This document shows positions 1 through 55,527 of a stretch of DNA of 64,000 nucleotides, in pieces. The DNA is from Mobula hypostoma (Eukaryota), in assembly GCF_963921235.1 (NCBI RefSeq), contig NC_086108.1, positions 85,438,001 to 85,502,000 of the forward strand, in the 5' to 3' direction. Below the pieces are notes generated by a model. The model searched no databases, had not been told where the DNA came from, and saw only the letters and a program-made list of their open reading frames with translations. The translations under genes were made by a program, and so were the position numbers. How positions within the stretch are numbered: position 1 is the first letter of the stretch; every line of letters starts with the position of its first letter.

Positions 1-673
1 GTTGGGGGTCATCTACTGTATCCGGAGTTCATGGTGTGGCCTCCTGTATATCGAAGAGACCCAACACAGATTGGGAGACCACTTCACTCTGCCCCAAAAA
101 ACGAGATCTCCTGATAGCCACCCATTTCAATTCTGCTTCCCCTCCCCATTCTGACATGTTCATGGTCTTCCCTACTGCTGCAGTGAGGCCACACTCAGGC
201 TGGAGGAGCAACACCTTAAATTCTCTCGGGATAGCCTCCAACCTGATGGTATGAACATCAATTTCTTGAAATTCCGGTAATTACCACTGCCCCCTCTCCC
301 TTCAGCATTCCGCATTCCTGTTTCTCCTTATCTCCTTACCATCTTCTTACCTGCCCATCATCTCCCTCTGGTGGTTCTCCTCTTCCCCTTTCTTCCATGG
401 TCTTCTGTCTTCTCCTATCCGATTCCCCCGTCTCCAGCCATTTATCTCTTTCACCAATCAACTTGCCAGCTCTTTTCTTCATCCTCTCCCCTCTCCCGGT
501 TTCACCTATTGCCTGCCATCTTGTACTACTTCCTCCCCTCCCCCCCACCTTCTTAATCTGGCTCCTCCTCTTCCTTTCCAGTCTTGATGAAGGGTCTCGG
601 CCTGAAATGTCGACTGTACTCTTTTCCACAGATGCCGCCTGGCCTGCTGAGTTCCTCCAGCATTTTGTGTGTG
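1..673 (+). mobile_element. Penelope-like element (family 1, Neptune-like) 3' fragment: decayed GIY-YIG endonuclease end plus terminal repeat (pLTR)
   Basis: The start translates as GVIYCIRSSWCGLLYIEETQHRLGDHF (GIY-YIG). A pyrimidine-rich tract and the hammerhead-containing terminus follow. Homologous to 28833-29718. Confidence 0.85.
579..616 (+). ncRNA. Degenerate minimal type-I hammerhead ribozyme motif
   Basis: CAGTC-TTGATGA-A-GGGTCTCGGCCT-GAAATGTC-GACTG: 5-bp stem I (CAGUC/GACUG), core with a C3-to-U change. Confidence 0.6.
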
Positions 674-1639
674 CAGCCGAGGTAAAGGAGTGTCTTTGTG
701 TAAGGTGACTCTAACAGGAAATTGTAAAGTAATCTCTGTCCTGCTTATCTTACCTCTCCACTCTCTGTCCTGCTGTGGGGTTTTGAACTGACACATTGAC
801 AGCCACTTTCCTCCCACAGATGCTACGTGATCCACTGAATTCCTCCAGCATGTTTTCTTGTTGTTGCTCCATACTCTTAGTGGTGGAGGGATGGAAGGGA
901 CAAAGTAATTGCACTATGATGTGAGAACAAACATAGCAGCTATAGCATTAAGCAACACAATCTTCCTGTAGTGAGTCTAATGGAAGTAGAAAGCAATTGG
1001 CAGACAGCTGCAGGGCGAACATACACTGCTGTGCTGTAAGTAACATCCAAGTCTACAGAGTGAGGACAGCGAACTAATGAGTGAGCAAGAGGAGGTAGTA
1101 GCACAGTGACTGATATCACCAGGAAGGTGGGCAAAAGAACAAAGCACTTGTGAACAAAATATTTCAATGTACTTCAGAGCATCAAAAGAGTTTTTTTGCC
1201 ACTCTGTTCAGAGTCTGTTCTCTCAGAAGGAACAAAGTAGCAGCCACCTGGGAAGATCAGAAAAGACTTCAAAATGGAATGCAATGTCATTACAATTAAC
1301 AGCACAGAGAGTACTTGCCAAGAGCCAAACAAAAGAAGGAAATAAGTTGGCTTATCCCAGTTTCCAGGTCTTACTCAAGAACCTTGCACTTTATTATCAA
1401 ATGCTCATCCAGGTATTGCTCAAATGAGATGAGAGTTTCTGCCTCAATCACCTCGTCAAGCTGTGAGTTTCAAATCACAATGTCTCTCTCAGTGTTCCTT
1501 TCCCTTTCAATTCCCTTCTAAACCTTCATTTATGCTCTTTAGTTAATGAGGTACTTGCCCTAGGAAACAGATAGAAAAAATTATTGAATTGTTCAGTCAT
1601 CTCTGGTAGAGTTTCTGTTTGCTTCATTATAAAATTTGG

Positions 1640-2065
1640 TTTAGCTGTTTACATTTCCTCCTTTCTCGATCTTTCTGTCTCCTGTTGGCATGAATATCGA
1701 TATCTCCTTCCAGTAGCAAATTTCTCCCCCCACCTTCCTCATTTCCCCACTCTGACTGTTTACCTCTTCTCACCTGCCTATTGCTTTCTCCTGGGTCTCC
1801 TCCTCCTTCTCGTTCTCCTTTGGTCCGCTCACCTCTCCTCTCAGATTCTGTCTTCTCCAGCGTCTGTCCTTTCCCACCCACCTGGCTTCACCTTATCACC
1901 GTCTTGCTATCCTCCTACCCCTCTCTCCACCTTTTTGTTCTGTCATCTTCCCTCTTCCTTCTCAGTCCTGAAGAAGGGTCTCAGCCTGAAATGTTAACTA
2001 TCTATTCATTTCCATTGATGTTGCCAGAGCTGCTGAGTTCCTCCAGCATTTTGTGTGTGTTGCTT
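1640..2065 (+). mobile_element. Penelope-like family-1 3' end/pLTR fragment
   Basis: Pyrimidine tract, then cagtcctgaagaagggtctcagcctgaaatgttaact ... gctgagttcctccagcattttgtgtgtgttgc. Confidence 0.75.
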
Positions 2066-4288: not shown

Positions 4289-5050
4289 GGCGCATAAACT
4301 CTTCCTGGGCTTCCAGCTGGGAACAGGTATCAATTTTAACTGACGTTTTGATGACAAACTGTTCCATCTTCATCAGGGATGTTGCCAGGGCATGTCTAGT
4401 CTGGTGGTATTTATACCCTTGTTGTTCATTTCACCTGATTGATTAGTCCTCATCCAATCAGGTTTCCTCTGTCCCATCTTGTTTATAATCAAATTCCAGT
4501 TCTTACTTGGAGTGAGACCTTCATCTTTGTTAAAATTATTTTCCTCTAGTTTTATTTCGATGGCTTCTTTCACCAGGCAGTCCCAAAAGCCATAGGAGGG
4601 ACATAGTAGTTTTGTGCTGTCGAAGTCGATCCTATGGCGATTGTGAATGCAATGTTGTGCTACTGCCGATTTCTCTGGGTAAACCCAAATGGATACACCT
4701 CCTGTGCTCCTTGGCGTGCATCCTGTCTGGCTGATATCCACTGCTCCACATTCACAGGGAATTCTGTAAATACCAGCTAACCTGAGTCCCAGGTCACCTT
4801 TGACCCCCATAAGCTGTGACTTGAGCTTCCTTACGGGTTTGTGGATGGTATTAATCCAGTATTTCTTCAGGATCCTGACGATCCTTCCAGAAACCATGAA
4901 AATATTGGGAAGACAGGTGGTAGCAATGGGTTCCTCTTTATTGTTATGTTTCCTGGTTTTTCCGTTGGCCGTTTTAAGGGCCTAATTGATTTACGTCACC
5001 TTGTAGCCATTCTGTAGGCACGTCGTGTGTGATTGGCTTATTTCCTCCTG
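4289..5050 (-). mobile_element. Penelope-like element (family 2, Poseidon/Penelope-like) 3' fragment with GIY-YIG domain
   Basis: ORF 4373..4897 contains AGIYRIPCECGAVDISQTG ... KSAVAQHC ... KEAIEIKLEENNFNKDEG, followed by a pLTR with a TATA box and a hammerhead motif. Confidence 0.85.
4337..4381 (-). ncRNA. Degenerate hammerhead motif (family 2)
   Basis: Minus strand CATCC-CTGATGA-A-GATGGAACAGTTTGTCATC-AAAACGTC-AGTTA; G12 is changed to A. Confidence 0.55.
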
Positions 5051-6110: not shown

Positions 6111-9012
6111 AGCAGACTTCACACACTTGAAGAATTTCCATTTCTTTGGCAACTTTATTGATAACAACAGGAATTGAAATATGAAGCACAAATGATTGAT
6201 CTGAAACATTAATTCCCTCTTTTCAAGGATGATGCCTGTCCTTACCAACATTTTGATTTTTTTTTTATTTCTTTGTGACATTCCTTGTGAAAATCTTAGA
6301 GTTATATAATCACAATTTGTTCTAAATGTTTACTGAATAGCTAATGCTCATAAAGATCATTAAATTATATCATTGATAAGACATTGGGACAAACAGCATC
6401 TCATTGGTTGATTTGACTAATTCCAATAATTTCTTTTGTACTTGGCTTTGCTTAGCTTCCCATCATCCTCCATGTAATGAGTGGTTCTATCATTTCTTCA
6501 GATTCAGAATCAGAACCAAGTTTAATATCACCGACACATGTTATGAAATTTTGTCCAGCAAAATCTATATGAATCCTCTGCCAGGGCAATGAGGGCCATT
6601 CCCAGGGATAAAGAGACGCCTTTGGCATTTTCTCAACATGTTGGCATCCCATACAGTCAATGGCAAGCTGCTCGATTTGCTGATCAAGCCCACCAAAGGC
6701 CATCCAGGCAAAACCTCGAGCCAATGCTTTCATTTTGACGATGCCTTGCCTTGATGACCGGCATGTAGACCCTCCAATACTTCAGCTTTCAGCTTGGATG
6801 GTACAACAACTCTCAATCCCTGTCAAGGGCAAGTTCATGCTGGCACTGCTAAAACCGCAGGCACTGAGATTTCTACAGTCATTTTGGGTGGCCATGTAGA
6901 CCTGAAACAGTGTGGGGGTCTTTTCTGCTTTCCCTTTGGATCATCTCTGCTCTAATAAGGAGACTTTTGATTTGCACACAACACATTCATCAGCATTTCC
7001 ATGATTTGTTGACCTCTTGAATTCAATCTTGTAACTGTGTCCTCCAAGAAACAGAGCCCATCTCTGCACTTGTGCTGCTGCTGTTAGTGGAACACCCTTC
7101 TGTAGATTGAAAATAGACAATAGTGGTTGATGATCAGTAATGAGGGTAAACTCTCTCCCATATAAGTACTGGTTGAAAGGTTTTACATCCCAAAGCAGAT
7201 GCAAGACCTCTCTGTCAATTTGAGTGCAATTTTTCTCTGCAGCGATAAGAGAATATGATGCAAAGTCTGTGGGGCGTACATTTCCATCACTCATAACATC
7301 TGACACGACTGCGCGTACAGCAGAAGGCAAAGTGTCACAGCCAGGTTTCACTGGATGATGTGGATCATTATGTGTGAGCACGGAGTCTGATGTCACAATC
7401 TGTTTACCTTTTTGAAAGCCATCTCACACTGCTTTGTCCATTGCCAGTTCTTCTTGATCTGTAGTAATGAGTTCAAGGGGTGGGGTAAAGTAGCCAGGGT
7501 TGGCAGGAACTTGTTAAGTAATTGACAAATCCTAAAAAGAACTGCAACTGTGGCATGTTCTTTTGCCTTGGGGCATCCACCACTGCTTGAATTTCCTCAT
7601 CATGCTTCTGTAATTCTCGTGCATCAATGACGTGACCATAGTAAGTGACGCTTGGTTGAAAGAATTCACATTAGTTGAATTGTGCTCTGAGCCCATAATC
7701 TTCTAATCTTTTTAACACTGTCTTAAGATGTTGGAGATGTTCTTTGTCATCGTCACTGGTAACAATGATGTCATCCAATAACACTGAGTGCCTAAGCAAC
7801 CTTGCAGCACCTGGCCCATAGCTTTCTGCCAAAGTGCAGGCACAGATGCTACTCCAGAAGTAGGCCTATTATAGTGATAAAGCCTTTGTGGATGTTTATG
7901 GTGAGAAACACATTGGCTCTTTCTCCATCTCCATCTTTAGGTAGACCTCAGCTAAGTCTGCTTTGCTGAAGTGTTTTCCTCCAGAAGGTTTACAAAGATA
8001 TTGTCTTTCCTGGGCAGAGGGTGTTGATCTACTTTCAGTACTGGGTTGATCGTGACTTTAAAATCACCAGAGATCCTGAAAGACCCATTGCTCTTGGCTA
8101 CTAGGACCACTGGCCATGCCCATGGGCTCCACCCAACCTTGGAAAGAATCCCTTCAGCCTCCTTGTGACCTAGCTCACTGTCTACATTATTGTGAATGGT
8201 ATAAGGAACCTGACAGACTTTGCACCAAAAATGGGTGTGGCAATTTTATTTAACAGTCTTTTTATATTGATATGCTTGAGTTTTCCGATGCAATCATTAA
8301 ACACTGCTGTGGCATCATCCATTACATTTCTTAATTCATTTTGAGTTTATTACAGGGGATGTGGCATGCAAATGGAAGATGGATCTCTAATCAAGTTGTA
8401 GTTGTCTCACCCACTCACATCCCCACAATGCCGGTCCTCCTGTTTTTACCACATAGAAGACTAATGTGGCTTGTTAGGTGTTGTATTTCACTGTTACTAG
8501 TGTCATCCCCACAGGAGTTATCCTTGCTCTAGTATACAGTAAGTTTTTAGTTGGATATCTGCAGGCTTCAGTTCAGTATCTTTGAAATGATGCTCTAACT
8601 CATGTTGTGAATGACTGAAACAGCTGAGCCAGTATTTAGTTCCATTCTAATTAATTTGCTGTTCACTTCTGGTGTAAGCCAAGTAGCTAGGCTCCTGTTA
8701 GTGTTTACGTTGTAAATTTCAAGGCTATCCAGTCCTGTGTCATTCTCATTGTTATCAGATTTTTCATCAGCAGCATGCAGATTTGTGCTCTTTTTGAAAC
8801 TGCAACTTGACTTTTCATCTTTTTCTCTTCCCTGTGTTGTCCACTTATATTTGTCTGCCTGACATGCTCATTGTATGTCTCCTACTTTGTTGTACTTTCT
8901 GCAAGTTTGCCTTTAAACCTACATTGGTCTGGTGTATGTGAGTCTCTGCCACAACGGTAACACAATTTATTTGGCCAGGCCGGTTTCTGCTTAGACATTG
9001 CAATTTTGTTCA

Positions 9013-9180
9013 GCTTCTTACTCTGACATCTCCTCTTTTTTTCCAGTCCTGTTGAAGGGTCTTGGCCTGAAACGCTGACTGTTTACTCTTTTCCATAGAT
9101 GTTGCCCGGCCTTCTGAGTTCCCCCACCTGCATTTTGTGTGTGTTGCTTTGACTTCCAACATCTGCAGATTTTCTTGTGT
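9013..9180 (+). mobile_element. Short family-1 pLTR (hammerhead) insertion inside Gypsy gag
   Basis: Perfect 15-bp TSD ttgcaattttgttca at 8998-9012 and 9181-9195; contains cagtcctgttgaagggtcttggcctgaaacgctgactg. Confidence 0.85.
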
Positions 9181-9802
9181 TTGCAATTTTGTTCATGCTC
9201 ACTTTCATTCAGAGTGCAACTCAATTGCGAAGCTCTGTTGTTTCCATTGAAAAGGTTATTTCAACTGCTCTTTTAAGTGTAACTTAAGCTTCTGTTAGGA
9301 GACATTTTTTATTGCTTTCTTGTAACATTCCAAAAAATAAATGATCTCTCAGTGCATCATTAAGCTCATTACCCAACTGAAAATGCTCAGCCCATGTCTT
9401 AAGTTCAGCCACATTTGCTGAAAGGGGTTCCTCTTCCGTTTGATTTTGGTTATGAAATGTAAAGTGTTTTGCAATCATAAATGCCTTCAGTTCAAGATAC
9501 TCCTGCATTTCTTTCATGATATCTGTAAAGCTCATTTTGGCTGATTTGGTTGGAGCAGTTAAACTTCTAAGCAAACTGTATGCCTTTAAACCCAAGGCAC
9601 TTGGCTTGGGTTCAATGAAAACTTCCTCATTGCTACTGTTAAATTTTGTAACTCCAAAACATAAAACTAATTTAAAGAAAACCATGGAGCTGGGATAACT
9701 CATGTATGTTAATCTCGTTTTTTATTACTTTAAGCAAAACAAGCATATATGACGTGGTGGTATGATGACATATGGCATTTATGTGCTTCTACATATAACC
9801 CA

Positions 9803-25249: not shown

Positions 25250-27280
25250 TCTAGCTGTCATCTTCTCAATGAACATTCCCGTGTGTGTGGTCTGATCACA
25301 TGGGCTGCTCATCCAGAAGTAGATTTCACCCCACTTGTGGGACTTCAGCCTTACCTGACAAATCCAGGCCAATGACAGGCACTCTGCACGGAGGGTTGCT
25401 AAGAGGCATTGCTAGTCCAAAACAGAGTGCCAGGCAGGCTATTAGTCGTAGCTGAGCTCACACACTATAACGAGCTATGAAACAAAGGTCAGGCTGCTTT
25501 GCCTCCCTTTCTGATGAGCTCAGCACATTCTATGTATGCTTTGAACAGGAAGGGATTAGAATGTCACCTCCCACTCTGATAGCTTCCAATGAGCCAGAAT
25601 CCCTAATCATCCTTGTGGATGCAAGGATGCAAGATCAGTGGAATATGAGTGAAGATGTGTAAAGCTTCTGGCCTGATGGTGTTCCTAGTCATGTCCTTTG
25701 AACATCTGCACACTAGCTAGTAGGAGTATTTGCAGACATTTTTAGCCTCTTGCAGTTTCAACCTGAAGTTCCCATCTGCTTTATGGAGACCACTATCATC
25801 CCAGTACCAAAGGTAGACAAAGTAAAGGTAACGTGTCTTAATGACTACTCCCTGGTGGCTCTGATATCCACCATCATGAAGTGGTTTGATAAGTCGGTCA
25901 TGGCACATGTTGCTTCAAGCTCCCAAACAACCTCAACTCACTGCAGTTTGCCTATCACTGAAATAGTTCAATAGTGGACACAATCTCCCTGGCTCTACAC
26001 TCATTTCTGGATCATCTGGACATTCTTAATCAATTTCAGCTTTGCCTTCAATACTTTCAATCAAGCTTATCTCCAGATGGTGGGCCTCACTGGACATATC
26101 GATTCTTTATTCCTTTCCACAGATGCTGCCTGACCTGCTGAGTTCTCCAGCACATTGTACGTGTTACTGTAAACTTACTGACCTGGGACTCAACACTTCA
26201 TTTTGCAACTGGATCCTTGGCTTCTAGACCAACAGACCACATTCAATAAGAATGGGCAGCAACATCTGTGCCATGATTGTTTTTAACACTTGCATCCTAC
26301 TGAGCTATGTACTTACCCCCTATTCTACCTCCTGTACGGTCGTGACTGCATGGCCAGATTCTGCTTTAACTCCATCTACAAATTTGCAAATTATATCACC
26401 ATGGTGGACCACATTTCAAATAATAATGAGTTTGAGTCCAGGAAGGAGATAGAAAGCTTAGTGGCATGTTGTCATGACAACAGCACTTCCCCCAATGTCA
26501 GCAAAATAAAATAGCAGGAATAACTTTAGGAAGGAGCGGTGCACATGCTCCTGTTTACGTCAGTGGTACTGAGATCAAGAAGGTTGAGAGCTTTAAGTTC
26601 CTAGGCTCAAACATCATTAATAGCCAAACCTTGCCCAACCACATAAGTACCATGGCCAAGAAAGCTCATTAGTGCCTCTACTTCCTTAGGAGGTATAAAA
26701 AATTGGCATATCCCCTTTAATAGCATCAGTTTTCATCAGGATGGATACATTGGTGCTGGCAATGCTGGCTGATCTTGTTTTATCCAAATGCATAACAACA
26801 ACAGCTCTGTCTCTGACCTCAAGAAATTGCAGAGAGTTGTGAATGCAGCTCATACATCATAGAAACCAATGACCCCTCCGTGAAGTTAGTCTATATTTCT
26901 CACTGTCTCAGTAAAGAAGCCAGCACAATCAAAGATCTCACCCACCCAGTACATTCTCTCCTCTCCCTCCTCCCACTGGGTAGAAGATATGGAACTCTGT
27001 AAGCCTGTACCACTAGGATCAGATTATATCCTGCTGTTATAAAGCTATTGAATGGTTCTTCAGTTTGATAAGATTGACTCTTTTCCTCACAATCTGCCTC
27101 GTTATAACCTTGCACTTATTGTCTACCTGCGCTGCACTCTCTCTTGTAACTGTACCACTTTATCTTGCATTCTATTATTGTTTTATCTCTGTACTATCTC
27201 AATGCACTATTGTAATGAATTCATGTGTATGAACAGTATGCAAGGTAAGTTTTTGAGTTGAGACAATAGTAAACCAATTT
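25250..27280 (+). mobile_element. Rex1/Babar LINE, decayed, with a small pLTR piece at about 26080-26165
   Basis: TTIIPVPK ... [27 protein letters not shown]-terminal IKDLTHP ... LLPLGRRY. Confidence 0.8.
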
Positions 27281-29718: not shown

Positions 29719-30993
29719 TAGGTTGAGTAAACTTGGCTTTTTCTCCTTGATGCGACAGAGGTGGCCGGATAGAATTGCATAAGATGATGAGGGGCATTGA
29801 TCGTGCGGATAGCCAGAGGCTTTTTCCCAGGGCTGAGATGGCTAACACAAGGGGGCATAGTTTTAAGGTGCCTGGAAGTAGGTACAGGGGGGATGTCAGA
29901 GGTAAGTTTTTCACACAGAGAGTGGTGGGTGCGTGGAATACACTGCCGGTGACAGTGGCGGAGGTGGATACAATAGGGTCTTTTAAGGGACTCTTAGATA
30001 GGTACATGGAGCTTAGAAAAACTAGAGGGCTATGTGGTAGGGAAATTCTCGGCAGTTCCTGGAGTAGGTTACATGGTCAGCACAACATCGTGGGCCGAAG
30101 GGCCTGTAATGTGCTGTAGATTTCTATGTTCTATATTGTATGTTCTAAAAGCTTTCCAAGACATAGTGGTAATAATGTTATTTGCTGTCACTCAGGTTTA
30201 TTACGTTGCAGCCTGGGAAAGAGGGAGCTGTATGATTCAGTCTCATCAGTAATTTGCAACAGCATCTATAGTGTCTTAAGCATCAGCAGGAAGCTATGCA
30301 GAAAGAGCTGTTAATTCAATGAAGTTGGGAAAGTAGATGATAAATTTGTTTACTTGCTATTTGTAGTGTCTATTTCCAATTCAAGCAGCTGGATTTTATT
30401 TTTACCCCATACTTTATCCAAAAACTGCCACTGTGTTATTTGTAAGATGAAACAGAAGTCCTGCATTATTGAAGATGCTCTTTTGAGGATGGGATTCTAG
30501 TCTGTTAAGACAGCATCGAGGGTGCTTTACAATGCATACAAATATTGTCTTTCCTCATACAGTCTGAAACTGACTCCTAGACTCAAAAGAATTCTTCAAT
30601 GTCATTTTATTAAGTACACAGTTATGAAGATTAACAAAAAAAATCACAATCCTGCAACAGTGTGACCTTTCACCATCTCCAGCTGGATAATATTTTCCGT
30701 TTTACAGTACAGTACATATTACACTGATGAAACTGAAGCTGCTTTAAATATCAGCTGTAATGTATTGTCTTTAGATATTGACACTTAACGCTTGGCAGTA
30801 CACCGAGCACCAGTTCAGTATCAATATGTGGCCAATATCACAAACCAATTGATAAATGATCAAATTATTCCTGCATTAGTGTTTCATCTAGTAAACAGAA
30901 ATAAATGTTAATTAAATGCCTGCCAAATGTTTGCAGTCTTGTTCACCTCAGTGCGCTCGCCTGAATAAACTGCAGATAAAAAAAGCGCTTTCA

Positions 30994-31655: not shown

Positions 31656-31931
31656 TATTTCATTATAAGTTTGAGGAGATTTGGTATGTCACCAAAAACA
31701 CTTGCAAGTTTCGACAGATGAACCGTTAAGAGCATTCTAACTGGCTGCATCACCGTCTAGAATGGTGTGTTGGGGGGGTGTCTACTGCACAGGATTGAAA
31801 TAATTTGCAGGGAGTTGTAAACTCAGTCAGTTCCCTTATGGGCACTAACCTCTGCAGTATCCAGAACATCTTCAAGAGCGATGCCTCAAAAAGGCCGTGT
31901 CCATCATTAAAGAGCCCCATCACCCAGGTCA

Positions 31932-32057
31932 CAAACAAAAGAAATTCTGTAGATGCTGGAAATCTGAGCAACATACACAAAGTGCTGGAGGAACTCAGCA
32001 GGTCAGGCAGCATCTAGGAAAAGAGTACAGTCGACGTTTTGGGCTGAAACCCTTCGG
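31932..32057 (-). mobile_element. Short family-1 pLTR insertion
   Basis: TSD catcacccaggtca / catcacccagttca (31918-31931, 32058-32071); the 5' end falls inside the hammerhead core. Confidence 0.8.
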
Positions 32058-33429
32058 CATCACCCAGTTCATGCCTTGTTCTCATTGCTACCATCAGGAA
32101 AAAATACAGAAAACTAAAGGCACACACTCAACGATTTAGGAACAGCTTCTTTCCCTGTCATCTGATTTCTGACTGGACATTGAACCCAGGAACACTACCT
32201 CACTACTTTTTTATTTTTATTATTGCACCACTTATTTAATTTAATTAGCTAATGTACATGCATATACATAGACTGCAATTCACAGTTTTTTCTATTATTA
32301 AGTATTGCATTGTACTACTGCCCCAAACACAAAAAAAATTTCATGACATATATCGGTGATATTAATCTGATTCTGATTCTGAAAGAACAGAAAATTGATC
32401 TATAAAGCAGCAAAAGAGACAAAATAATGCTTATAAACCAAGCACTAAGCCATTCCACACAACATACTGCTGGAAGGAACTGCAGATGCCAAACTACTTG
32501 CTGAATCTTGAGGAACTCTTTGAATTAGTGGAGTAGATTTAATATCCTTTGGATCTTCAAGAAACTTTCACTAAAACTCAACAGAGTGGATTTATGATTG
32601 GCATATTGAGAAAGGAGACCAGAAGCAGGAGAATTAGAAAACGGGTTGCAAATAGAAAAGACAGAGTTATGATTGAGGGTACAGATCCTCCCAATTTACA
32701 GACCATACATAATGTGTGAGTGTTTGGGAGATTGGTGTCATGAACTTTCCAGCTGATGCAGGGCTGCAAGCATCTTCTGCCAGCTGGGAACTCAGCAGAA
32801 GATTCTTGCAACTAATAACTACTCCGGTTATAAACAACTTACAGGAACAGGGTCCTGCTGCAAACTGTGGATGACCTTAGACTGGTAAAAGGAGAAAGTA
32901 ACGTTCTTATATTAAAGTGAACACACTTCACCTTTCTTCTTCCAGATTTGCTGTTGTGCCAAACAGTTGATCGCCATTTATATTAATGAATTGAATTTGT
33001 AAGCTAAAGTTTACAGGTGACACTGAACTGGGAGTGTAATAATGCTGCGGAGAACTGACAAAATACAAGACAACATTATTAAGCTGCAGAATAATGGGTA
33101 TTTGCTAAATTAATTTCCACTAAGAAAGGAGTCTTGAAAGCTTAAGGCCTCAGAAATAAAAGTTCAAATCGAGTACAGGAGAAAAAGAAATCTAGGGTTA
33201 TGAATACAAATAAACTATATTGATAGAGGTTAATTAAATTACTTCTTTTAATTCAACTTCTTGAGAGTAGCAAATGAAAAACCAAGAAGTTAGTTAAACT
33301 TGTGTAGAAGCCTGTTTGGTCTTTGAATGAATGGCACTAGTTTCCACTTTGCAAAACAGTGGCCAAATTAGAGTCTGATTATCTGTCTGTATCCTCGAGC
33401 AATGGCAGTGAGGCATTTCAGAAGTTTTT

Positions 33430-37279: not shown

Positions 37280-38830
37280 CCTACCAATTACGTTTATTAT
37301 TTCCAACATGTCAGTCCACGGCCTCCTCTTGTGCCATGATGAGGCCACCCTCAGGGTGGGGGAGAAACATTTTATATTCTGTCTGGTTAGTCACCAAACT
37401 GATGGCATGAATATCAATCTCTCCTTCCATTAAAAACATTTTCCCTCCACCCAGAGTGGCAGGCGGTGACTAGTGGGGTACCGCAAGGCTCAGTGCTGGG
37501 ACCCCAGTTGTTTACAATATATATTAATGACTTGGATGAGGGAATTAAATGCAGCATCTCCAAGTTTGCGGATGACACGAAGCTGGGCGGCAGTGTTAGC
37601 AGTGAGGAGGATGCTAAGAGGATGCAGGGTGACTTGGATAGGTTGGGTGAGTGGGCAAACTCATGGCAGATGCAATTTAATGTGGATAAATGTGAAGTTA
37701 TCCACTTTGGTGGCAAAAATAGGAAAACAGATTATTACCTGAATGGTGGCCGATTAGGAAAAGGGGAGGTGCAACGAGACCTGGGTGTCATTATACACCA
37801 GTCATTGAAAGTGGGCATGCAGGTACAGCAGGCGGTGAAAAAGGCGAATGGTATGCTGGCATTTATAGCGAGAGGATTCGAGTACAGGAGCAGGGAGGTA
37901 CTACTGCAGTTGTACAAGGCCTTGGTGAGACCACACCTGGAGTATTGTGTGCAGTTTTGGTCCCCTAATCTGAGGAAAGACATCTTTGCCATAGAGGGAG
38001 TACAAAGAAGGTTCACCAGATTGATTCCTGGGATGGCAGGACTTTCATATGATGAAAGACTGAATCGACTAGGCTTATACCCTCTGGAATTTAGAAGATT
38101 GAGGTGGGATCTTATTGAAACGTATAAAATCCTAAAGGGATTGGACAGGCTAGATGCAGGAAGATTGTTCCCCATGTTGGGGAAGTCCAGAATGAGGGGT
38201 CACAGTTTGAGGATAAAGGGGAAGCCCTTTAGGACCGAGATGAGGAAAACCTTCTTCACACAGAGAGTGATGAATCTGTGGAATTCTCTGCCACAGGAAA
38301 CAGTTGAGGCCAGTTCATTGGCTATGTTTAAGAGGGAGTTAGATATGGCCCTTGTGGCTACGGGGGTCAGGGGGTATGGAGGGAAGGCTGGGGCGGGGTT
38401 CTGAGTTGGATGATCAGCCATGATCATAATAAATGGCGGTGCAGGCTCGAAGGGCCGAATGGCCTACTCCTGCACCTATTTTCTATGTTTCTTCTTCTAT
38501 TCCCAACTCTGGCTTCTTACCCCTTCTCACCTATCACCTCCCCTCCCTTTCTCCTGTGGTTCACTCTCCTCTCGTGTCAGATACTTTCCTCTTCAGCCCT
38601 TTACCGTTCCTATCCACCTGGCTTCACCCACCACCTTCTAGCTCTCCTCCTTTCCCTTCCCCCAACTTTTTATTCTAGTGTCTCACCCCCTTCCTTTCCA
38701 GTCCTAAAGAAGGGCCTTGGCCCAATACGTCGACTGTTTATTCATTTCCATAGATGCTGCCTGACCTACCGAGTTCCTCCAGCATTTTGCTTTGGATTTC
38801 CAGAATCTGCAGAATTTCTCACATTTATCC
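37280..38830 (+). mobile_element. Penelope-like family-1 3' fragment split by a CR1 insertion
   Basis: GIY-YIG C-terminal remnant at about 37305-37420; pLTR at about 38495-38825 with a degenerate hammerhead at 38699-38736. Confidence 0.7.
37452..38492 (+). mobile_element. Young 5'-truncated CR1 LINE with an open RT C-terminal frame
   Basis: ORF 37466..38404 (312 aa) uninterrupted from TSGVPQGSVLGP and KFADDTK to FFTQRVMNLWNSLP; tail tttctatgtttc. Confidence 0.95.
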
Positions 38831-41235: not shown

Positions 41236-41941
41236 TTGACATCTGTCAGGGACAGTGAACATAAAACAGGAATGCCTGCTCATTGCAAGTGAACTGAATC
41301 TGGAAGTATTAGCAAAATCATTAAAGATAATATGGTTTCAGTGATTAGCTTAATATCATGAAATGGAATTTGTAACCTAAAAATGGATAAATTTGATATT
41401 AAACAGGAATTAAGTCCACTTAGTTGGTTTGAAAAGGCTTACTGTGGATAAATATGTGGATAGTTTTATCAAATTAAGGAGGATGTTAGTATACTGATTA
41501 GATTACTGGACAAGTGTTCTCCCATAGAGTTGTGATCTATAACCTCCTGTATGTTTCTAACATTTCTATAGAAGGCACAAAATACCAGCCCGTGTCAGCA
41601 TCCCCAGCACCTTGACCCAAAGTATTTCTCTGGCTATGGCATTCATTTGGCTGAAACCAGATCCTTGAAACAGACACTATATTCCAAATTTTGTCATGGG
41701 AGTAGCTTATGAGGTAGACAGAGGAAAGGATTCAGGGTATGCTCAAAGGTTCATTGAGGAAATGACTCTGAGGAATATCTGGCCTACAGCTTTCTCAAAG
41801 TAGAGAAAGAGAAGCTGGGATGGTAATGAGAACTTCATAGCCACTGATAGAGTGCCTAATGAAGTCCTGCATAAACAATGGAAAGATCGCATCACTTTTA
41901 AAATAAAACAGTTATCTCCTGCCCAATCAGGGACTCACTAC

Positions 41942-42151
41942 AAGCAAGAGAAAATCTACAGATGCTGGAAATCCGAGCAACAAACATAAAATGCTGGAGG
42001 AACTCAGCAGGCCGGGCACCATCTAGGAAAAGAGTACAGTCGACATTTCGGGCCAAAATGTCCTGCCGAAGGATTTCAGCCTGAAACATCGGCTGTGCTA
42101 GATGCTATCTGGCCTGCTGAATTCCTCCAGCATTCTGTGTTTGTTGCACAA
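41942..42151. mobile_element. Fold-back family-1 pLTR insertion
   Basis: Minus arm about 41942-42058 and plus arm about 42060-42147; flanks actcactac / actctctac (8/9). Confidence 0.75.
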
Positions 42152-42529
42152 ACTCTCTACCCTAGCTGTGGAAGAGTGAGCAGTTCCCATGCTGGTTACA
42201 TCTCAGAACCCGCAGAACTGGAAACTCAGCCTTGTTTTCAAGGAACTGCTCAAGTAGAAGAAATGCAATTCAGATACTTGGATGTACCACCTAGAGGCAC
42301 GAGTTTAAATTTCCTTCACAGATGGAGCACTTAAACTCAAAAGATATATTAACAATATCAAATCTCAGTAATGGTGAGCAAGAGGCTACAGATTGCCATA
42401 AAAACTCCCTGGTTCTTTAATATATTTTAGGGAATGGAGTCTTCTTGTCTAACATGGCTAAGGACTCCACAACTCATGTTCTCAATCTTCACTTATCTAT
42501 TTTTCCATATATATATATCTCAATGAAAA

Positions 42530-44001: not shown

Positions 44002-44023
44002 CTAAAACTTTTGCAGAGTACTG
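43941..44023. mobile_element. Second copy of the mini-MITE, with a (TA)n core
   Basis: TA-cagtacagtgcaagagtcttggg ... (ta)n ... cctaaaacttttgcagagtactg-TA. Confidence 0.7.
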
Positions 44024-45442: not shown

Positions 45443-46085
45443 AAGAAGAATCAAAGGAAATAGAAATTCGACAAACTTTAATTGATGTTACGCAATGGTT
45501 TGGACTTTACTGGAAAATGCTAGCAGTCTCTAAGTTAAGACAACAGGAAGCATTCATTTCATGATATCAATGCCATAACTTTTAGCTTCTGTACAGCACA
45601 GACATGTAGAAATACATAAAGTCTTTGGAAACAACTTGACAGTTGGGAAATCTGGAACTACAAATCAGACAAATCTCAAATGTTGAATTGTACATGTGCT
45701 TAATCTGGTGTCCCAAAATGAAGACTTAATGGCTATCAGGTCCCTGCTACTCCACCTGGTCTGGCCTTTTCTGATCAGAACAGCACTTACTGTGCTGCTT
45801 AATGCTGGTTTTCACCATGCGCCCTATCTGATCAATATATTCTGCTCCACATTCACAGAACATCCTGTAAACACCAGCCGATCTAAGTCCCAGGTCATAT
45901 TTGATGCCTATAAGCTGTGACTTGGACTTCCTTATGGGTTTGTGGATGGTATTAATCTGCTGTTTCTTCAGGATCCTGGTGACCCTTCCAGAAACCGTGG
46001 AAATATAGGGAAGACAGGTGGTAGTGGTGGGTTCCTCCACATTGTTAGTTTTCCTTGTTTTTCCATTGACATTTTTAAGGGCCCT

Positions 46086-46179
46086 CACACACAAAATGCC
46101 TGAGGAACTCAGCAGGCCAGGCAGCATCTATGGCAAAAAGTACAGTCGCTGTTTTGGGCTGAAACCCTTCGGCAGGGCC
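46086..46179 (-). mobile_element. Short family-1 pLTR unit nested in the family-2 element
   Basis: cacacacaaaatgcctgaggaactcagcagg ... gggctgaaacccttcggcagg interrupts the sequence that reads aagggcctaattg at about 4976. Confidence 0.7.
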
Positions 46180-46841
46180 TGATTGCTTTCCTTCACCTTG
46201 TAACCATTCTGTAGGAGTAAATAATAAATAAAAAAAAAATAACAATTACGCATGACTTCCCTACAGAATGGCTACAAGATGAAGGAAATCAATTAGGCCT
46301 TTGAAAGGGCCAATGAAAAAGTCAAGAAACCTAACAACAAGGAGGAATCCATCGCTGCTCCCTGTATTCCCACAGTTTCTAGAAGTATTGCCAGGATCCC
46401 GAAGAAATACTGGATTAATACCACCCGCAAACCCGTAAGGAAGCTCAAGTCACAACTCATGCAGGTCAAAGGTGACCTGGGGCTCAGGATGGATGGCATT
46501 TACAGGATTCCCTGTGAATGCAGAGCAGTGTATACCTAGGTTTACCCGGAGAAATCAGCAGTAGCAGAACACTGCATTGGCAATGGCCATAGGACTGACT
46601 TTGCCAGCACAAAATTACTGTGCCGCACCAATGGCTTTTGGGACTGCCTGGTGAATGAAACCATTTAAATAAAGCTGGAGAAAAAGAATTTTAATAAAGA
46701 TGAAAGTCTCACTCTAGGTAAGAACTGGAATTCTATTCCAAACAAGGTGGGAGAGCGGAAACCAATTGGATGAGGATTAGCCAATCAGGAGGGACAGACT
46801 ACGGTGGTATAAATACCACTGGACTAGACGTGACCATGCAT

Positions 46842-46886
46842 CATCCCTGATGAAGATGGCAGAGTTTGTCATTGAAACGTTGGTTG
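46842..46886 (+). ncRNA. Minimal type-I hammerhead ribozyme motif (family 2)
   Basis: CATCC-CTGATGA-A-GATGGCA-GAGTT-TGTCATT-GAAACGTT-GGTTG; 7-bp stem II, ACGU palindrome, imperfect stem I. Confidence 0.65.
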
Positions 46887-47008
46887 TAATCAATACCTAT
46901 ACCTGGCTGGAAACCTGAGGAGTTTATTCGAAAACTCATTCTTCGTGTATATTTAACCTCTCACAATGGCACTAACAAGGATGTTGAAACTTACTTCAAC
47001 TCACCTCC

Positions 47009-47262
47009 TTTAGAAAAACATACAAGTCTTGCTTTCTTCTGCAAAAGTGTAAGGTGTACCAGGATGTAGTGCATGATAGAACGCTGCCTGGCACCTAAAA
47101 CAACACATGGACAGAAAATATTTGCTTTTGTAATTATAAAAGGAAAATGGTAAAGCAGGATCACAGCAATATGCACAAAATGCTGGTGGAATGCAGCAGG
47201 CCAGGCAGCATCTATAGGAAGAGGTACAGTTGACGTTTTGGGCCAAAACCTTCGTCAGGACT
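47009..47262 (+). repeat. Direct duplicate of 48439-48693 (unique flank plus pLTR end)
   Basis: About 250 bp colinear; compare ORFs 46991..47176 and 48463..48804 (both contain VVLGARQRSIMHYILVHLTLLQ). Confidence 0.9.
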
Positions 47263-47900: not shown

Positions 47901-48603
47901 AGCACTCTTAGTATCTGATACACTGGAAGAAATGGTGATTTCATCAGCAATACTTACTTTGCTAAGAACTGGCTCCTGAGACACAGATGAACTCTTTGGG
48001 GCACATCCCTTTGTACTCTCAAATAATCTTTTCATTCATGTAATGCTAAATGCTTAGAATAATGTCACATCCTGGAGATGCACCAACTTCGTTTAGTTTA
48101 TAGCGCTTTCTTCTCAGTCAGACAAAGTTATTTTTCAAACACTTTCTCAGGATATGAGAAAACATGGTAGGCTGGCACTACAATTTAATATTGAATATTT
48201 GATATATATTTAATATATCTCCATGACTTCATGTCATGTTAACAAATGCCTGCTCACTCAGGTGGACAGTAAATTCCTGCCACAGTTACTTGATAAAATT
48301 CTTTGTACGATTAACACTGCCAGCAAGAGCTTTAGAGAATGAGACATTTATCACTTTCTTATAAACATTCGTATTTATCCTCCCAATAACAAGAACTGCA
48401 CTCAACGTAAACCATTGCAGATTAATGTCTTCAAGTATTTTAGAAAAATGTACAAGTCTTTCTTACTCCTGCAAAAGTGTAAGGTGTACCAGGATGTAGT
48501 GCATGATAGAACGCTGCCTGGCACCTAAAACAACCCACGGATGGAAAATATTTGCTTTTGTAATTATAAAGGGCAAAGGGTAAAGCAGGATCAGGGCAAT
48601 ATG

Positions 48604-49698
48604 CACAAAATGCTGGTGGAACGCAGCAGGCCAGGCAGCATCCATAAGAAGAGGTACAGTCGACGTTTCGGGCTGAGACCCTTCGTCAAGACTAACTGAA
48701 AGAAGAGATAGTAAGAGATTTGAAAGTGGGATGGGGAGGGGGAGATCCAAAGTGATAGGAGGAGGGGGAGGGAGGGCGCTAAGAGCTGGAAAGTTGATTA
48801 GCAAAAGGGATACAAGGCTGGAGAAGGGAGAGGATCATGGGACGGGAAGCTTAGGGGGAAAGAAATCATCAGAGGAAGATATAGTGAGAGGGACAGAGGG
48901 AGAAAAAAGAGAGAAAGAAGGGAAAAAATAAAAAAATAAGGGACGGGGTAAGAAGGGGAGGAGGGGCATTAATGGAAGCTAGAGAAGTCAATGTTCATGC
49001 TATCAGGTTGGAGGCTACCCAGATGGAATATAAGATGCTGTTCCTCTAACCTGAGTGTGGCTTCATCTTGACAGTAGAGGAGGCCATCTATTATTTTTTA
49101 TTTCTTCCCCTTTCTTTCTCTCTCTCCTATTCTGATATGTCTGTCCATGGCCTCCTCTACTGTCAAGATGAAGCCACACTCAGGTTGGAGGAACAACACC
49201 TTATATTCCGTTTGGGTAGCCTCCAACCTGATGGCATGAACACTGACCTCTAACTTCTGTTAATGCCCCTCCTCCCATTCTTACCCCATCCCTTATTTAT
49301 TGATCTATTATTTTTATTTTTTCCTTTTTTTCTCTCTCTCTGTCCCTCTCACAAATACTTCTTGCCTGCTCTCCATCTTCCTCTGGTGCTCCCCTCCCCC
49401 TTTCTTTCTCCCTAGGCCTCCCGTCCCATGATCCTCTTCCTTCTCCAGCCTTGTATCCCTTTTGCCAATCAACTTTCCAGCTCTTAGCTCCATCCCTCCC
49501 CCTCCTGTCATCTCCTATCATTTCGGATCTCCCCCTCCCCCCCCACTTCCAAATCTCTTCTTTCAGTTAGTTCTGATGAAGGGTCTCAGCCCGAAACGTC
49601 GACTGTATCTCTTCCTAGAGATGCTGCCTGGCCTGCTGCGTTCCACCAGCATTTTGTGTGTGTTGCTTGAATTTCTAGCATCTGCAGATTTCCTCGTG
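48604..49698. mobile_element. 1.1-kb fold-back Penelope-like family-1 insertion
   Basis: Minus arm 48604-49087 and plus arm about 49128-49698; 13-bp TSD tcagggcaatatg (48591-48603, 49699-49711); a hammerhead in each arm (48658-48693 minus, 49569-49604 plus). Confidence 0.92.
49569..49604 (+). ncRNA. Best-preserved minimal type-I hammerhead ribozyme motif
   Basis: AGTT-CTGATGA-A-GGGT-CTCA-GCCC-GAAACGTC-GACT: full core, stem II of 3 GC pairs plus UG, ACGU palindrome, predicted cleavage after 49600. Confidence 0.8.
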
Positions 49699-50422
49699 TC
49701 AGGGCAATATGGATGGAAGAGCAACCATTATGCTGATGTTTTGTGTGTCTACTACATTTGAAGGAGCAGGCAGCATTTTGCTCTGTATTTCCAGCACCTG
49801 CCGATTTCAATTTGTTTATGATTTGTGGCTCCACTGTGAAGCCTCTTCGTGATACACCTAGCCTGAGGAAGTTTAAATTTTCTCTTTGGGAGTTCATTGA
49901 GAACCTCTCTCATTGCTCCCCTTCTTTGAACTCTGCTGCTCTCTGGTTGTTCAACAAGGTGCTAACTTAGAATTGCTACGGCAGCCACAAGTCCTTTCTC
50001 AGAACTTGTCTCGCCACCATCTTGTGCCTTCTTCAGCCTTTACCTCTTCCACCTATCACCTCCCAGCGTTGTACTTCATGCCCCTTGTCCCACTCATCTT
50101 CCTCCTTCACCTGCTTTCACATATCACCTACCAGCTTGTACTCCTACCCCTCCCACCACCTTGTTACTCTCTATTTTGCCCCTTTCCTTTCCAGTCCTGG
50201 TGAAGTCTAGACCCAAGATGTCAACTGTTTATTATAGATGCTGTCAGACTTGCTGAGTTCCCCCAGCATTTTATGTCTGTTGCTCAGACTTACCAGTTTA
50301 CAGTGAGGACAGCAGGATAGGTTCTGGATCCTTAGATATTAATGCTGATATTTTGGGCACATTGCCTGTGATCAATACTGTATGATCACTTGAGTTGTAA
50401 ATTATTAGACAACACTTTTTTT

Positions 50423-52560: not shown

Positions 52561-52752
52561 TTACTTGGGTTGGAGCAACAATTGCCCCGTGGTAGTAGTG
52601 ATGTAGCTTGAATGTTTTTTTGGAGTCTGGTATTGGGCATATGAAGGATGCGGCCTATCCCAAAGTTCTTTCCCTTCAACAGCATGCTGCCTGCCCGCCA
52701 TAACTGTGAGACCCAGGAAAAAGCTGATCACTTCCCATATCTTCATAGTCAT
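52561..52752 (-). CDS. Candidate 63-aa ORF with a signal-peptide-like N-terminus (unverified)
   Basis: MTMKIWEVISFFLGLTVMAGRQHAVEG-KELW...; A at -3 of the ATG, TAA TAA stop, AATAAA about 55 nt downstream; lies in sequence not recognised as a repeat. Confidence 0.15.
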   Translation of the reverse strand: MTMKIWEVISFFLGLTVMAGRQHAVEGKELWDRPHPSYAQYQTPKKHSSYITTTTGQLLLQPK

Positions 52753-55256
52753 TTTTGCAGTAGCAGGAACAGATATTAATGATGAACTTCAACACCCCCT
52801 TCAATGTTCTAGCATTGTCAATGGTTGAAAAAAATGGTACCTTCATAAAAAAACCTCAGACTTAGCACAAAAGGTGTGGTCTACCAGGCAGTCGTCATAC
52901 CAGCATGCTCTCTCTGACTCTGAGACGAAAATATTCTACTGCAGGCATCTCAAGGTACTGGAAAAGTATCGCCAGTGTTGTCCATGCAAAATTCTCTACA
53001 GGAAGGACAAGTGTAGCAATGGGCAACTTGTGCAGTACTGAAACTTTGGTTGTGATCTGTTGGCTCTAGTTGGGAAGGGTACATTGATTGCATGTCCGAT
53101 AATAATCTTCCAAAAGAAATGTACCATTGGAATTCCATCATATATGTTCCAGGTGTATTTATGTCAGGGCTGTTGACTGAAATGAAGAGCATTCTCAGAA
53201 AAATAAAGCAGGCATTTAGGAGGTACTGAAATCTGTATTCCTCCTCCACCATCAAATCACAATGTGTTAATGAAAACACAAAGGAACTACAGATAAATTA
53301 CTTTAATTAGCTCTTCAGCAATCTGCCAGGTTAGCCCTCAAATTGATATGTGCTCATCCACCGCAATCCCAAGGTGATTTCCTCTTAAAGCTTTTACTGT
53401 TCTGTTCTAATCATCACCTTGAACCTTACTGTCATGTGAAAAACTGTACGCAATGAATTTTGTTAACACAGAACAAAGAATAGCAAAGTACAGGAAAGAG
53501 ACCTTTTGGCCTGTGACGTTATGCTGAACTAATAAAATTAGTAATCAAATGTCCAGTAAAGCTAATCCCTTCTGCCTACACAATGTCCATATCCTTCTAT
53601 TCCTTGTGCTGATCTAAAAGCCTCTTGAGCTCTGCTATTATACTTGCCTCCATTACCACTCCCAATAACCAGTCAGTGGTGTAGTGCCATCCACACCGGA
53701 CTTCAGGGCTAGTGATTAGTGATTAAGGCTGGCTCTTTGTATGCTTTCCATCTGTGCAGGATTGAGCATTGAGCTAGTAGCTCGGCCTTGTAAAAGACAA
53801 ATGTTAAAGAAACTACCAGGTTGCCGGCCAAAGAGCCACAAGGCACAGAGAACAACTATATATATTATGTTTTATACATATTATATTTTATATTTTTTAT
53901 TTTATATTTTTTATATTTTAGGAGAAATTTTGGGAGTGCAGAGTTTGTGTGTTCCTGTCAGGATTAAAGGCAAAGTGATTAGGAATAAGGAACCTTGGTT
54001 CTCAAGGGATATTGTAACTCTGATAAAGAAGAAGAGGGAGTTGTATGACATGTATAGGAAACAGGGAGTAAATAAGGTTCTTGAGGAGTATAAAAAGTGC
54101 AAGAAAATACTTAAGAAAGAAATCAGGAGGGCGAAAAGAAGACATGAGGTTGCCTTGGCAGTCAAAGTGAAGGATAATCCAAAGAGCTTTTACAGGTATA
54201 TTAAGAGTAAAAGGATTGTGAGGGATAAAATTGGTCCTCTTGAACATCAGAGTGGTCAGCTATGTGCGGAACCAAAAGAAATAGGGGAGATCTTAAATGG
54301 TTTTTTTGCGTCTATATTTACTAAGGAAACTGGCATGAAGTCTATGGAATTAAGGGAAACAAGTAGTGAGATCATGGAAACTGTACAGATCGAAAAGGAG
54401 GAGGTGCTTGCTGTCTTGAGGGAAATTAAAGTGGATAAATCCCCGGGACCTGACAAGGTGTTCCCTCGGACCTTGAAGGAGATTAGTGTTGAAATTGCAG
54501 GGGCCCTGGCTGAAGTATTTAAAATGTCGCTGTCTACAGGTGAGGTGCCGGAGGATTGGAAAGTGGCTCATGTTGTTCCGTTGTCTAAAAAAGGATCGAA
54601 AAGTAATCCGGGAAATTATAGGCTGGTAAGTTTAATGTCAGTAGTAGGTAAATTATTGGAGGGAGTACTAAGAGACAGAATCTACAAGCATTTGGATAGA
54701 CAGGGACTTATTAGGGAGAGTCAACATGGCTTTGTGCATGGTAGGTCATGTTTGACCAATCTATTGGAGTTTTTCGAGGAGGTTACCAGGGAAGTGGATG
54801 AAGGGAAGGCAGTGGATATTGTCTACGTGGACTTCAGTAAGGCTTTTGACAAGGTCCCGCATGGGAGGTTAGTTAGGAAAATTCAGTCGCTAGGTATACA
54901 TGGAGAGGTGGTAAATTGGATTAGACACTGGCTCAAAGGAAGAAGCCAAAGAGTGGTAGTAGAGAATTGTTTCTCCGAGTGGAGGCCTGTGACTAGTGGT
55001 GTGCCACAGGGATCAGTGCTGGGTCCATTGTTATTTGTCATCTATATCAATGATCTGGATGATAATGTTGTAAATTGGATCAGCAAATTTTCTGATGATA
55101 CAAAGATTGGAGGTGTAGTAGACAATGAGGAAGGTTTTCAGAGCCTGCAGAGGGACTTGGACCAGCTGGAAAAATGGGTTGAAAAATGGCTGATGGAGTT
55201 TAATACAGACAAGTGTGAAGTATTGCACATTGGAAGGACAAACCAAGGTAGAACAT

Positions 55257-55527
55257 TTAAACGCAAACAACAGGAATTCTGCAGATGCTGGAAATTCAAG
55301 CAACACGCATCAAAGTTGCTGGTAACGCAGCAGGCCAGGCAGCATCTGTAGGAAGAGGTGCAGTCGACGTTTCAGGCCGAGATCCTTCGTCAGGACTAAC
55401 AGACGTTTCAGGCCGAGACCCTTCGTCAGGACTAACGTTAGTCCTCGGCCTGAAACATCGACTGCACCTCTTCCTACAGATGCTGCCTGGCCTGCTGCGT
55501 TTACCAGCAACTTTGATGTATGTTGCT
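55257..55527. mobile_element. 271-bp fold-back family-1 pLTR insertion with tandem hammerheads
   Basis: Perfect 14-bp TSD ccaaggtagaacat (55243-55256, 55528-55541); inverted arms 55299-55381 and 55444-55527. Confidence 0.95.
55362..55433 (-). ncRNA. Two tandem minimal hammerhead cores
   Basis: Minus strand AGTC-CTGACGA-AGGGTCTCGGCCT-GAAACGTC / TGTT-AGTC-CTGACGA-AGGATCTCGGCCT-GAAACGTC-GACT. Confidence 0.75.

What the first reader, a model, noticed from the sequence alone, without database searches (positions are those of the whole stretch)
579..55433. Dispersed family of minimal type-I hammerhead motifs in Penelope terminal repeats (more than a dozen recognisable copies)
Seen: the recurring motif (C)AGTC-CTGAYGA-A-GGGTCTCRGCCY-GAAACGTC-GACT(G), for example at 579, 1963, 9043, 27435, 28896, 32020, 38699, 42060, 46143, 47227, 48658, 49569, 50192 and 55362/55402. 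It contains CUGANGA, GAAA, the NUH triplet, a stem I formed by the flanks, a 4-bp stem II, an extra A after A9 and a palindromic helix III. Established: Penelope-like elements carry such hammerheads in their pLTRs. Inference: at this density any long transcript crossing the locus would carry many candidate self-cleaving or dimerising motifs on both strands.
Basis: partly seen in the sequence, partly recalled or inferred. Interest (0 to 1): 0.7.

Follow-up and report, generated by a model that had tools for sequence, protein, structure and literature searches.

The report
Decayed Penelope-element hammerhead relics
The repeated 38-base motif is the small hammerhead ribozyme motif already known from Penelope-like jumping genes, here on broken end-fragments in what is likely a ray genome; most copies are mutated and are predicted not to cut RNA, so it is real but ordinary.

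Summary
In detail: all 15 listed positions are copies of one family (8 plus strand, 7 minus), and I count 18 copies or arms from about 13 insertions. They are 3' ends of a Penelope-like retrotransposon with a Neptune/Nematis-type linker. The motif lies behind a GIY-YIG frame 63-86% identical to ray proteins. Copies show target-site duplications, inverted pairs and two 3' ends 32 bases apart. The motif fits the published minimal type-I hammerhead. The functional inference is not supported. Only 5 of 18 keep the catalytic core and only one (49568-49605) keeps every feature. Core bases decay as fast as the tail (8.7% vs 6.1%, p=0.33), CpG sites 32%. There is no covariation beyond shuffles. Each copy is a hammerhead on one strand only, and the best copy is predicted to be buried in a duplex with its inverted partner arm. 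Leads: 9 of 18 5' ends lie at or just inside the motif's upstream edge; one tandem unit (55402-55436) ends exactly at the cut site; three short copies share an A6C core; a second, Poseidon-like hammerhead family was missed. Known kind, low interest.

The parts
5..673 (+). Element 3' end: decayed GIY-YIG frame, pyrimidine-rich spacer, hammerhead 579-616 (C3>U, palindrome changed), short tail
1805..2065 (+). 5'-truncated copy; hammerhead 1963-2000, core intact, stem I 3 of 5 pairs, helix III AUGU
9011..9184 (+). 5'-truncated copy with long tail; hammerhead 9044-9081 (A6>U, U16.1>C)
26068..26168 (+).
27420..27545 (+). 98-base insertion (27434-27531) starting at the stem I edge, exact 14-base target-site duplication; G8>A
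   Evidence: (0 of 200 null draws as long)
28831..29788 (-). Longest fragment: linker with CX4CXXC motif, GIY-YIG endonuclease frame (29548-29231), spacer, hammerhead 28932-28895 (core intact, palindrome broken to ACAU), short tail
31918..32071 (-). 126-base insertion starting inside the CUGA box, 14-base target-site duplication (1 mismatch), long tail; A6>C, G12>A
38541..38820 (+). 5'-truncated copy; hammerhead 38699-38736 with three core changes
41933..42160 (.). Head-to-head pair: minus arm from about 42056 (partial motif, long tail) and plus arm from 42060 (A6>C, short tail); possible 9-base duplication with 1 mismatch (weak)
46078..46179 (-). ~90-base insertion inside a Poseidon-like arm; A6>C, G12>A, U16.1>G; 6-base duplication (weak)
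47009..47262 (-). Local duplicate (91% identical) of 48439-48693, with hammerhead 47262-47227 and ~160 bases of shared flank; not an independent insertion; G12>A
48591..49713 (.). Head-to-head pair with 15-base duplication (1 mismatch): minus arm 49091-48606 (hammerhead 48694-48657, C3>U, short tail), plus arm ~49113-49698 (long tail)
49568..49605 (+). The only copy with core, ACGU palindrome and both stems; predicted cut between 49600 and 49601
   Evidence: predicted buried in a duplex with the inverted arm
50094..50296 (+). Decayed 5'-truncated copy; hammerhead 50192-50227 with three core changes and a deletion
55243..55541 (.). Composite inside a LINE frame, exact 14-base duplication: minus arm (hammerhead 55398-55361, long tail), one extra base, a second core unit, then an exact fold-back into a plus arm from 55437 with an internal deletion and short tail
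55402..55436 (-). Tandem core unit that starts 7 bases before C3 and ends exactly at C17, the predicted cut site; lacks the 3' strand of stem I
46237..46930 (+). Second element family (Poseidon-like endonuclease end) with its own minimal hammerhead at 46845-46883: core intact, 8-pair stem II, 2-pair stem I by descriptor
   Evidence: the label Poseidon-like is my reading of the translation, no call names it
4291..5043 (-). Another copy of the second family; hammerhead about 4378-4340 with G12>A

Best explanation
These are 5'-truncated, mutated insertions of a Penelope-like retrotransposon's 3' terminal repeat, each carrying the element's minimal type-I hammerhead motif as a likely passenger that is predicted to be inactive in nearly all copies. 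Shown: the motif lies ~330 bases behind the GIY-YIG frame, insertions have 14-15-base target-site duplications, three are head-to-head pairs with one long and one short tail, and the copies decay mostly at CpG. Inferred from published work on other elements: the element's enzyme nicks the target and starts reverse transcription at one of two internal sites about 65 and 100 bases downstream of the cut site, so every insertion longer than that copies the uncut hammerhead whether or not it is useful; synthesis often stops or switches template at the hammerhead's upstream edge. In source elements the motif would cut only as a dimer through the ACGU palindrome or with protein help. After insertion there is no sign of selection.
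For: Element identity: Pfam GIY-YIG (weak, E 0.014, below cut-off); 11 homologues, 7 named from Mobula and Hypanus at 62-86% identity, and P0001 also holds an RT YxDD motif. Architecture matches the published description of EN+ elements. Two 3' ends, 49667 and 49699, are among the best-supported loose ends in both DNA-type runs, like the 30-40-base tail tied to two initiation sites in Anolis. Motif matches the four hallmarks in PMC4209133. Decay: core 11/127, tail 43/704, p=0.33; CpG sites 53/166 versus 29/386, p=2e-12; 46 of 53 CpG-site changes are C>T or G>A. 13 of 18 cores broken or cut. No covariation: 277-353 of 500 shuffles reach the observed values. Hammerhead stems have low predicted probability in context.
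Against: 5 of 18 cores are intact, and minimal hammerheads can be helped by protein, which folding programs do not model. 18 copies give little power to see selection on a few of them; I dropped 20 columns with shared variants, including A6, before the rate test. The covariation count used unmasked flank bases in truncated rows. No full-length element or RT is in the window, so the clade rests on the linker motif. The clustering of 5' ends and the junction at C17 are not explained by pure passenger status.
Confidence: 0.86

Rival explanations
1. The hammerhead cuts the element's RNA in vivo, and reverse transcriptase sometimes jumps onto the cut 3' end; the composite at 55243-55541 is a fossil of that, and the fixed start 7 bases before C3 marks a discrete RNA 5' end.
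For: The unit 55436-55402 ends exactly at C17, followed by one extra base; three segments of this one insertion start at the same base. 9 of 18 5' ends lie between 7 bases before and about 13 after C3. Tandem joints from the short tail back to 49569/49573 and strand-change joints at 49573 recur in two organisms.
Against: One case, noticed after the fact; a 2-base match (TC) at the joint allows a microhomology switch. None of 18 copies starts at the cut site. No joint from 49600 is among the 15 best-supported joints shown (103 not shown). Joints at 49569/49573 are inflated by a private change in my reference at 49572 and by a subfamily boundary at 49569. No RNA ends at the cut site were found for the Anolis element and cleavage was not needed for insertion in vitro.
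Confidence: 0.15
2. The dispersed copies act together on host transcripts, cutting or dimerising long RNAs that cross the locus.
For: About one copy per 3.5 kb; 5 intact cores; the family matches contigs in two runs guessed to be RNA (the kind of run is a guess).
Against: One fully formed copy of 18; its stems have predicted probability 0.00 with the inverted arm present and under 0.3 without it; the three copies that pass the descriptor lie 6-21 kb apart, one on plus and two on minus; no selection on cores; published dimer activity is low.
Confidence: 0.05
3. The ~95-130-base copies are a separate non-autonomous (SINE- or retrozyme-like) element with its own RNA, including a subfamily with an A6C core.
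For: Five insertions are only the motif plus tail; three short copies share A6C and a loop II change and are 84-90% alike; ~95-98-base tandem joints occur in 5 contigs of X1 and 10 of X5; retrozymes derive from such repeats.
Against: Starts vary over about 20 bases and two copies lack part of the core, so they could not regenerate the motif; the same sequence continues into the endonuclease frame in longer copies; no tandem array in the window; no A>C change is listed at 49576 at 3% or more (short A6C copies may have been clipped, so this is weak).
Confidence: 0.1

Closest known systems
Minimal type-I hammerheads (min-HHR) in pseudo-LTRs of metazoan Penelope-like elements (Cervera and De la Pena 2014, PMC4209133; parts 1-2 of 4 read)
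   Same: Type-I topology, no real helix III, palindromic 15.2-16.2, extra base between A9 and 10.1, G10.1-C11.1 pair, short stem I, mostly single dispersed copies; reported in Xena, Poseidon and Neptune elements of fishes.
   Different: Stem II is 4 pairs, against 7-8 in the Schistosoma families described there; that text gives about 4,000 and 9,000 motifs for coelacanth and Xenopus, while 97,673 and 84,803 contigs lay on a 331-base piece here (not a copy number); cartilaginous fish are not named in the parts read.
Neptune/Nematis clades of C-terminal EN+ Penelope-like elements (Craig et al. 2021, PMC8557442; 12 passages read)
   Same: C-terminal GIY-YIG, CX2-5CxxC linker, 5' truncation, inverted truncated partner at the 5' end, 30-40-base tail on one end only.
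   Different: No RT in the window, so no tree; insertions here have plain target-site duplications, with no sign of the microsatellite bias mentioned for Neptune.
Poseidon element of Anolis carolinensis (Frangieh et al. 2024, PMC11167929; parts 1-2 of 4 read)
   Same: Two internal start sites giving an optional tail; both strands cut and extended; uncut hammerhead copied into insertions.
   Different: Different clade; there the ORF starts inside the hammerhead, which I did not show here; nothing here was assayed.
Non-LTR retrozymes of animals (PMC7229834, passages; bioRxiv 10.64898/2026.07.22.740005, parts 1-2 of 5)
   Same: Short non-coding repeats with type-I hammerheads derived from Penelope repeats; found in one chondrichthyan genome.
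   Different: Defined by tandem units each with a complete hammerhead; none in this window.

Membership tests
min-HHR of Penelope-like elements | Core CUGANGA, GAAA and NUH in type-I order | tested here: met
   Family majority and 5 of 18 copies
min-HHR of Penelope-like elements | Stem I (4-5 bp) and stem II with G10.1-C11.1 and an extra base after A9 | tested here: met
   84% of cells pair versus 15-44% when slid; column 20 is A in 15 of 16
min-HHR of Penelope-like elements | Palindromic positions 15.1-16.1 for dimer formation | tested here: met
   ACGU in the majority and in 8 of 18 copies
min-HHR of Penelope-like elements | Located in the terminal repeat behind the ORF | tested here: met
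   Four copies follow endonuclease fragments on the same strand; no complete two-repeat element in the window
min-HHR of Penelope-like elements | Covariation in stems | tested here: not met
   Within these copies no measure exceeds shuffles. Expected for dead copies of one family; a second family in the window has the same core with other stems
min-HHR of Penelope-like elements | Self-cleavage as a dimer or with protein | not testable with these tools
   Needs an assay; only contigs, no raw RNA reads, were listed
C-terminal EN+ Penelope-like elements | GIY-YIG endonuclease with CCHH motif at the ORF end | tested here: met
   Pfam weak hit; homologues E down to 1e-50; CxxC and two His seen in the translation
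C-terminal EN+ Penelope-like elements | Penelope-type RT in the same ORF | tested here: inconclusive
   Not in the window; homologue P0001 has YxDD upstream of the matched part
C-terminal EN+ Penelope-like elements | Inverted 5'-truncated partner and optional 30-40-base tail | tested here: met
   3 of 3 inverted pairs have one long and one short tail; ends 32 bases apart
Neptune/Nematis clade | CX2-5CxxC linker between RT and EN | tested here: met
   CX4CXXC in frame 29549-30076 and in P0001; feature
Neptune/Nematis clade | RT phylogeny separating Neptune from Nematis | not tested
   No RT in the window, no reference set
Non-LTR retrozyme | [quoted passage not shown] | tested here: not met
   The only tandem (55361-55436) has one unit without the 3' strand of stem I; family-wide tandem joints exist in a few contigs
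Rfam hammerhead families | Score against the curated models | tested here: not met
   No hammerhead hit among 13 matches at E<=1

The most novel reading that the evidence does not exclude
The insertion junctions are a fossil record of how the Penelope hammerhead works in vivo: the element RNA has a discrete 5' end at the hammerhead's upstream edge and a ribozyme-cut 3' end at C17, and reverse transcriptase jumps from one to the other, as frozen at 55400-55402. With tens of thousands of copies, ray genomes would then give the first in vivo proof of cleavage, and an A6C-core subfamily would test whether the element spreads without normal cleavage.
Probability: 0.15. Interest if true: 0.6.

Novelty: new member of a known kind. 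Interest (0 to 1): 0.22.

Why it matters
As it stands it adds a very abundant ray family to a class described in 2014. Its use is as a dataset: whether Penelope hammerheads cut in vivo is open (low activity in vitro, no RNA ends found in Anolis), and a family this large allows junction positions and core variants to be counted. The locus-level idea of many active ribozymes in a host transcript is not borne out.

Tried and rejected
No whole genome is held for this window, so genome-wide counts were not possible. Rfam: no hammerhead hit; 13 microRNA-model matches, all far below their gathering scores. Metagenome scan with the central motif: 0 matches. Sequencing runs: no RNA holder listed and contigs only, so RNA ends at 49600/49601 could not be examined. 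Host gene: 150 of 158 open frames of 62+ residues outside masked repeats (a few swapped for others) gave only retroelement domains in Pfam; an exon-like stretch at 48467-48524 (-) gave no match below E 0.47 in one frame, other frames untested. A cis 'pre-dimerised' hammerhead from the tandem at 55357-55436: -4.3 versus -21.2 kcal/mol for the best fold, probability about 1e-13; rejected. Target-site duplications: 2 of 15 single-copy tests beat the null; long copies were not testable with that window. The shared 160 bases after 47165 and 48596 were considered as an element extension and rejected: they contain the left duplication of the 48-49 kb pair, so they are host flank. Lunse et al. 2017 on dimer cleavage is not held; seen only as a title and a citing sentence. 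Supplements of PMC4209133 were not opened and may list shark or ray motifs.
Full report
Observation. All 15 listed positions are copies of one repeat, 8 in hammerhead sense on the plus strand and 7 on the minus strand. Three further copies or arms bring the count to 18. They come from about 13 insertions, since three are head-to-head composites and 47009-47262 is a local duplicate of 48439-48693. The family motif matched 13 times at up to 9 substitutions and never in 30 dinucleotide shuffles; a structural descriptor hit 4 places against a shuffled mean of 0.1. Rfam's hammerhead models do not detect it.

What carries the motif. In four copies the motif follows a GIY-YIG endonuclease fragment on the same strand, after a pyrimidine-rich spacer. 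The best fragment (29548-29231) has a weak Pfam GIY-YIG hit (E 0.014, below cut-off) and 11 homologues among 61 candidates, 7 named from Mobula hypostoma and Hypanus sabinus at 62-86% identity. A ray host is inferred from these names. Upstream lies a CX4CXXC motif, which PMC8557442 gives for Neptune and Nematis and not Penelope/Poseidon (passages). No RT is in the window. Target-site duplications of 14-15 bases bound the insertions at 27434, 32057, 48606-49698 and 55257-55527; those at 42 kb and 46 kb are 9 and 6 bases and weak. All three inverted pairs have one long and one short tail. In contigs of two DNA-type runs, loose ends at 49667 and 49699 are among the six best-supported shown for each run. 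This fits the optional tail and two internal start sites shown for the Anolis element (PMC11167929, parts 1-2 of 4). 97,673 and 84,803 contigs of those runs lay on the 331-base reference; that shows great abundance but is no copy number.

The motif. The family majority has every hallmark listed in PMC4209133 (parts 1-2 of 4). Copies are another matter. Five of 18 keep the core (C3 at 1968+, 28927-, 49573+, 55393-, 55429-). Of these one has only 3 of 5 stem I pairs and a changed palindrome, one has ACAU for ACGU, one has a stem II mismatch, one lacks half of stem I; only 49568-49605 is complete. After masking non-homologous bases and dropping 20 columns with shared variants (A6 among them), changes were 11/127 at non-CpG core sites, 18/259 at other non-CpG motif sites, 43/704 in the tail and 53/166 at CpG sites; core versus tail p=0.33, CpG versus non-CpG p=2e-12 (17 aligned rows). 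Family-wide, C11.1>U was 39% and 32% and G12>A 13% and 15% of depth in X1 and X5. No covariation measure beat shuffles (unmasked). This is neutral decay; it does not bear on the source elements.

The transcript idea. A transcript reads 10 or 8 of the 18 in sense. With its inverted partner present, 37 of 38 bases of the best copy are predicted to pair with that arm and stem probabilities are 0.00; alone, stem I is under 0.01 and stem II under 0.3; for 28927- both are about 0.05. These are folding predictions without protein. No host gene was found.

Mechanism. Most likely the hammerhead is copied because reverse transcription starts about 65 or 100 bases downstream of its cut site on uncut RNA (inferred from the tails). 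Copying often ends near the motif's upstream edge: 9 of 18 5' ends, in 5 of 13 insertions plus the duplicate, lie from 7 bases before to about 13 after C3, none at the cut site. Why is open: a structure that stops the enzyme, short self-matches, or a discrete RNA end. The upstream sequence looks like a splice acceptor (pyrimidine run then AG, 3-6 bases before C3), and in Drosophila virilis Penelope an intron ends at the 5' end of helix I; untested here. Joints at 49569/49573 agree but are biased by my reference.

Leads. In the 55 kb composite a second core unit ends exactly at C17 and is followed by one extra base and a restart 7 bases before C3. This is what a jump onto a cleaved RNA end would leave, but it is one case with a 2-base microhomology, and no such joint is among the 15 shown of 118. 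Three short copies share A6C; in a phage ribozyme that change lowers Mg2+ activity and favours Mn2+ (PMC7151607, passages). A second, Poseidon-like family has its own minimal hammerhead at 46845-46883 and about 4378-4340.

Novelty. The class is published. A search for papers holding hammerhead ribozyme, Penelope and cartilaginous fish found none, and one on truncation and template switching listed nothing on such junctions by title or abstract start; a 2026 preprint reports hammerhead retrozymes in one chondrichthyan genome. Unopened supplements may already list ray motifs. Unchecked notes from this scan report the same family and the same 5' clustering elsewhere in this genome, with the cut site only a minor hot spot; they are not independent support. 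Verdict: real, a new member of a known kind, interest 0.22.

Noticed in passing
window 46845-46883 (+) and about 4378-4340 (-): Second minimal hammerhead family with a long stem II behind a Poseidon-like endonuclease end; the 46 kb copy has an intact core and an inverted partner arm at 45836-46083.
   Followed up: partly
window 32057-31932 (-), 42060-42150 (+), 46173-46084 (-): Three short copies share an A6C core and a loop II change; possible subfamily.
   Followed up: partly
window 55400-55437: Three segments start at the same base, 7 before C3, with an exact fold-back; the middle unit ends at the cut site.
   Followed up: partly
window 48467-48524 (-) and its duplicate near 47037-47094: 58-base exon-like stretch (acceptor AG, donor GTAAG) whose donor is lost in the local duplicate; no protein match found.
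   Followed up: partly
window 49563-49568 and 579-581: Pyrimidine run ending in AG just before stem I in long copies, like a splice acceptor; two upstream subfamily versions.
   Followed up: no
window 6941-7865 (-): LTR-retrotransposon RT/RNase H fragment (Pfam RT_RNaseH E 2e-19, RVT_1 E 4e-6).
   Followed up: no
window 14957-17948, 37403-38424, 53723-56116, 61403-62730: LINE fragments with RT and, at 17144-17948, an AP-endonuclease domain; the 55 kb composite interrupts one of them.
   Followed up: no
window 30990-31059, 31295-31495, 43926-44038: Short perfect or near-perfect inverted repeats (about 70, 200 and 110 bases), possibly miniature DNA-transposon relics; they give the sub-threshold Rfam microRNA matches.
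   Followed up: no
window 37302-37424 (+): Endonuclease fragment of the same element cut off by a LINE piece, with no hammerhead behind it.
   Followed up: no
window 3522-3548 (-): 27-base match to the family's tail alone.
   Followed up: no
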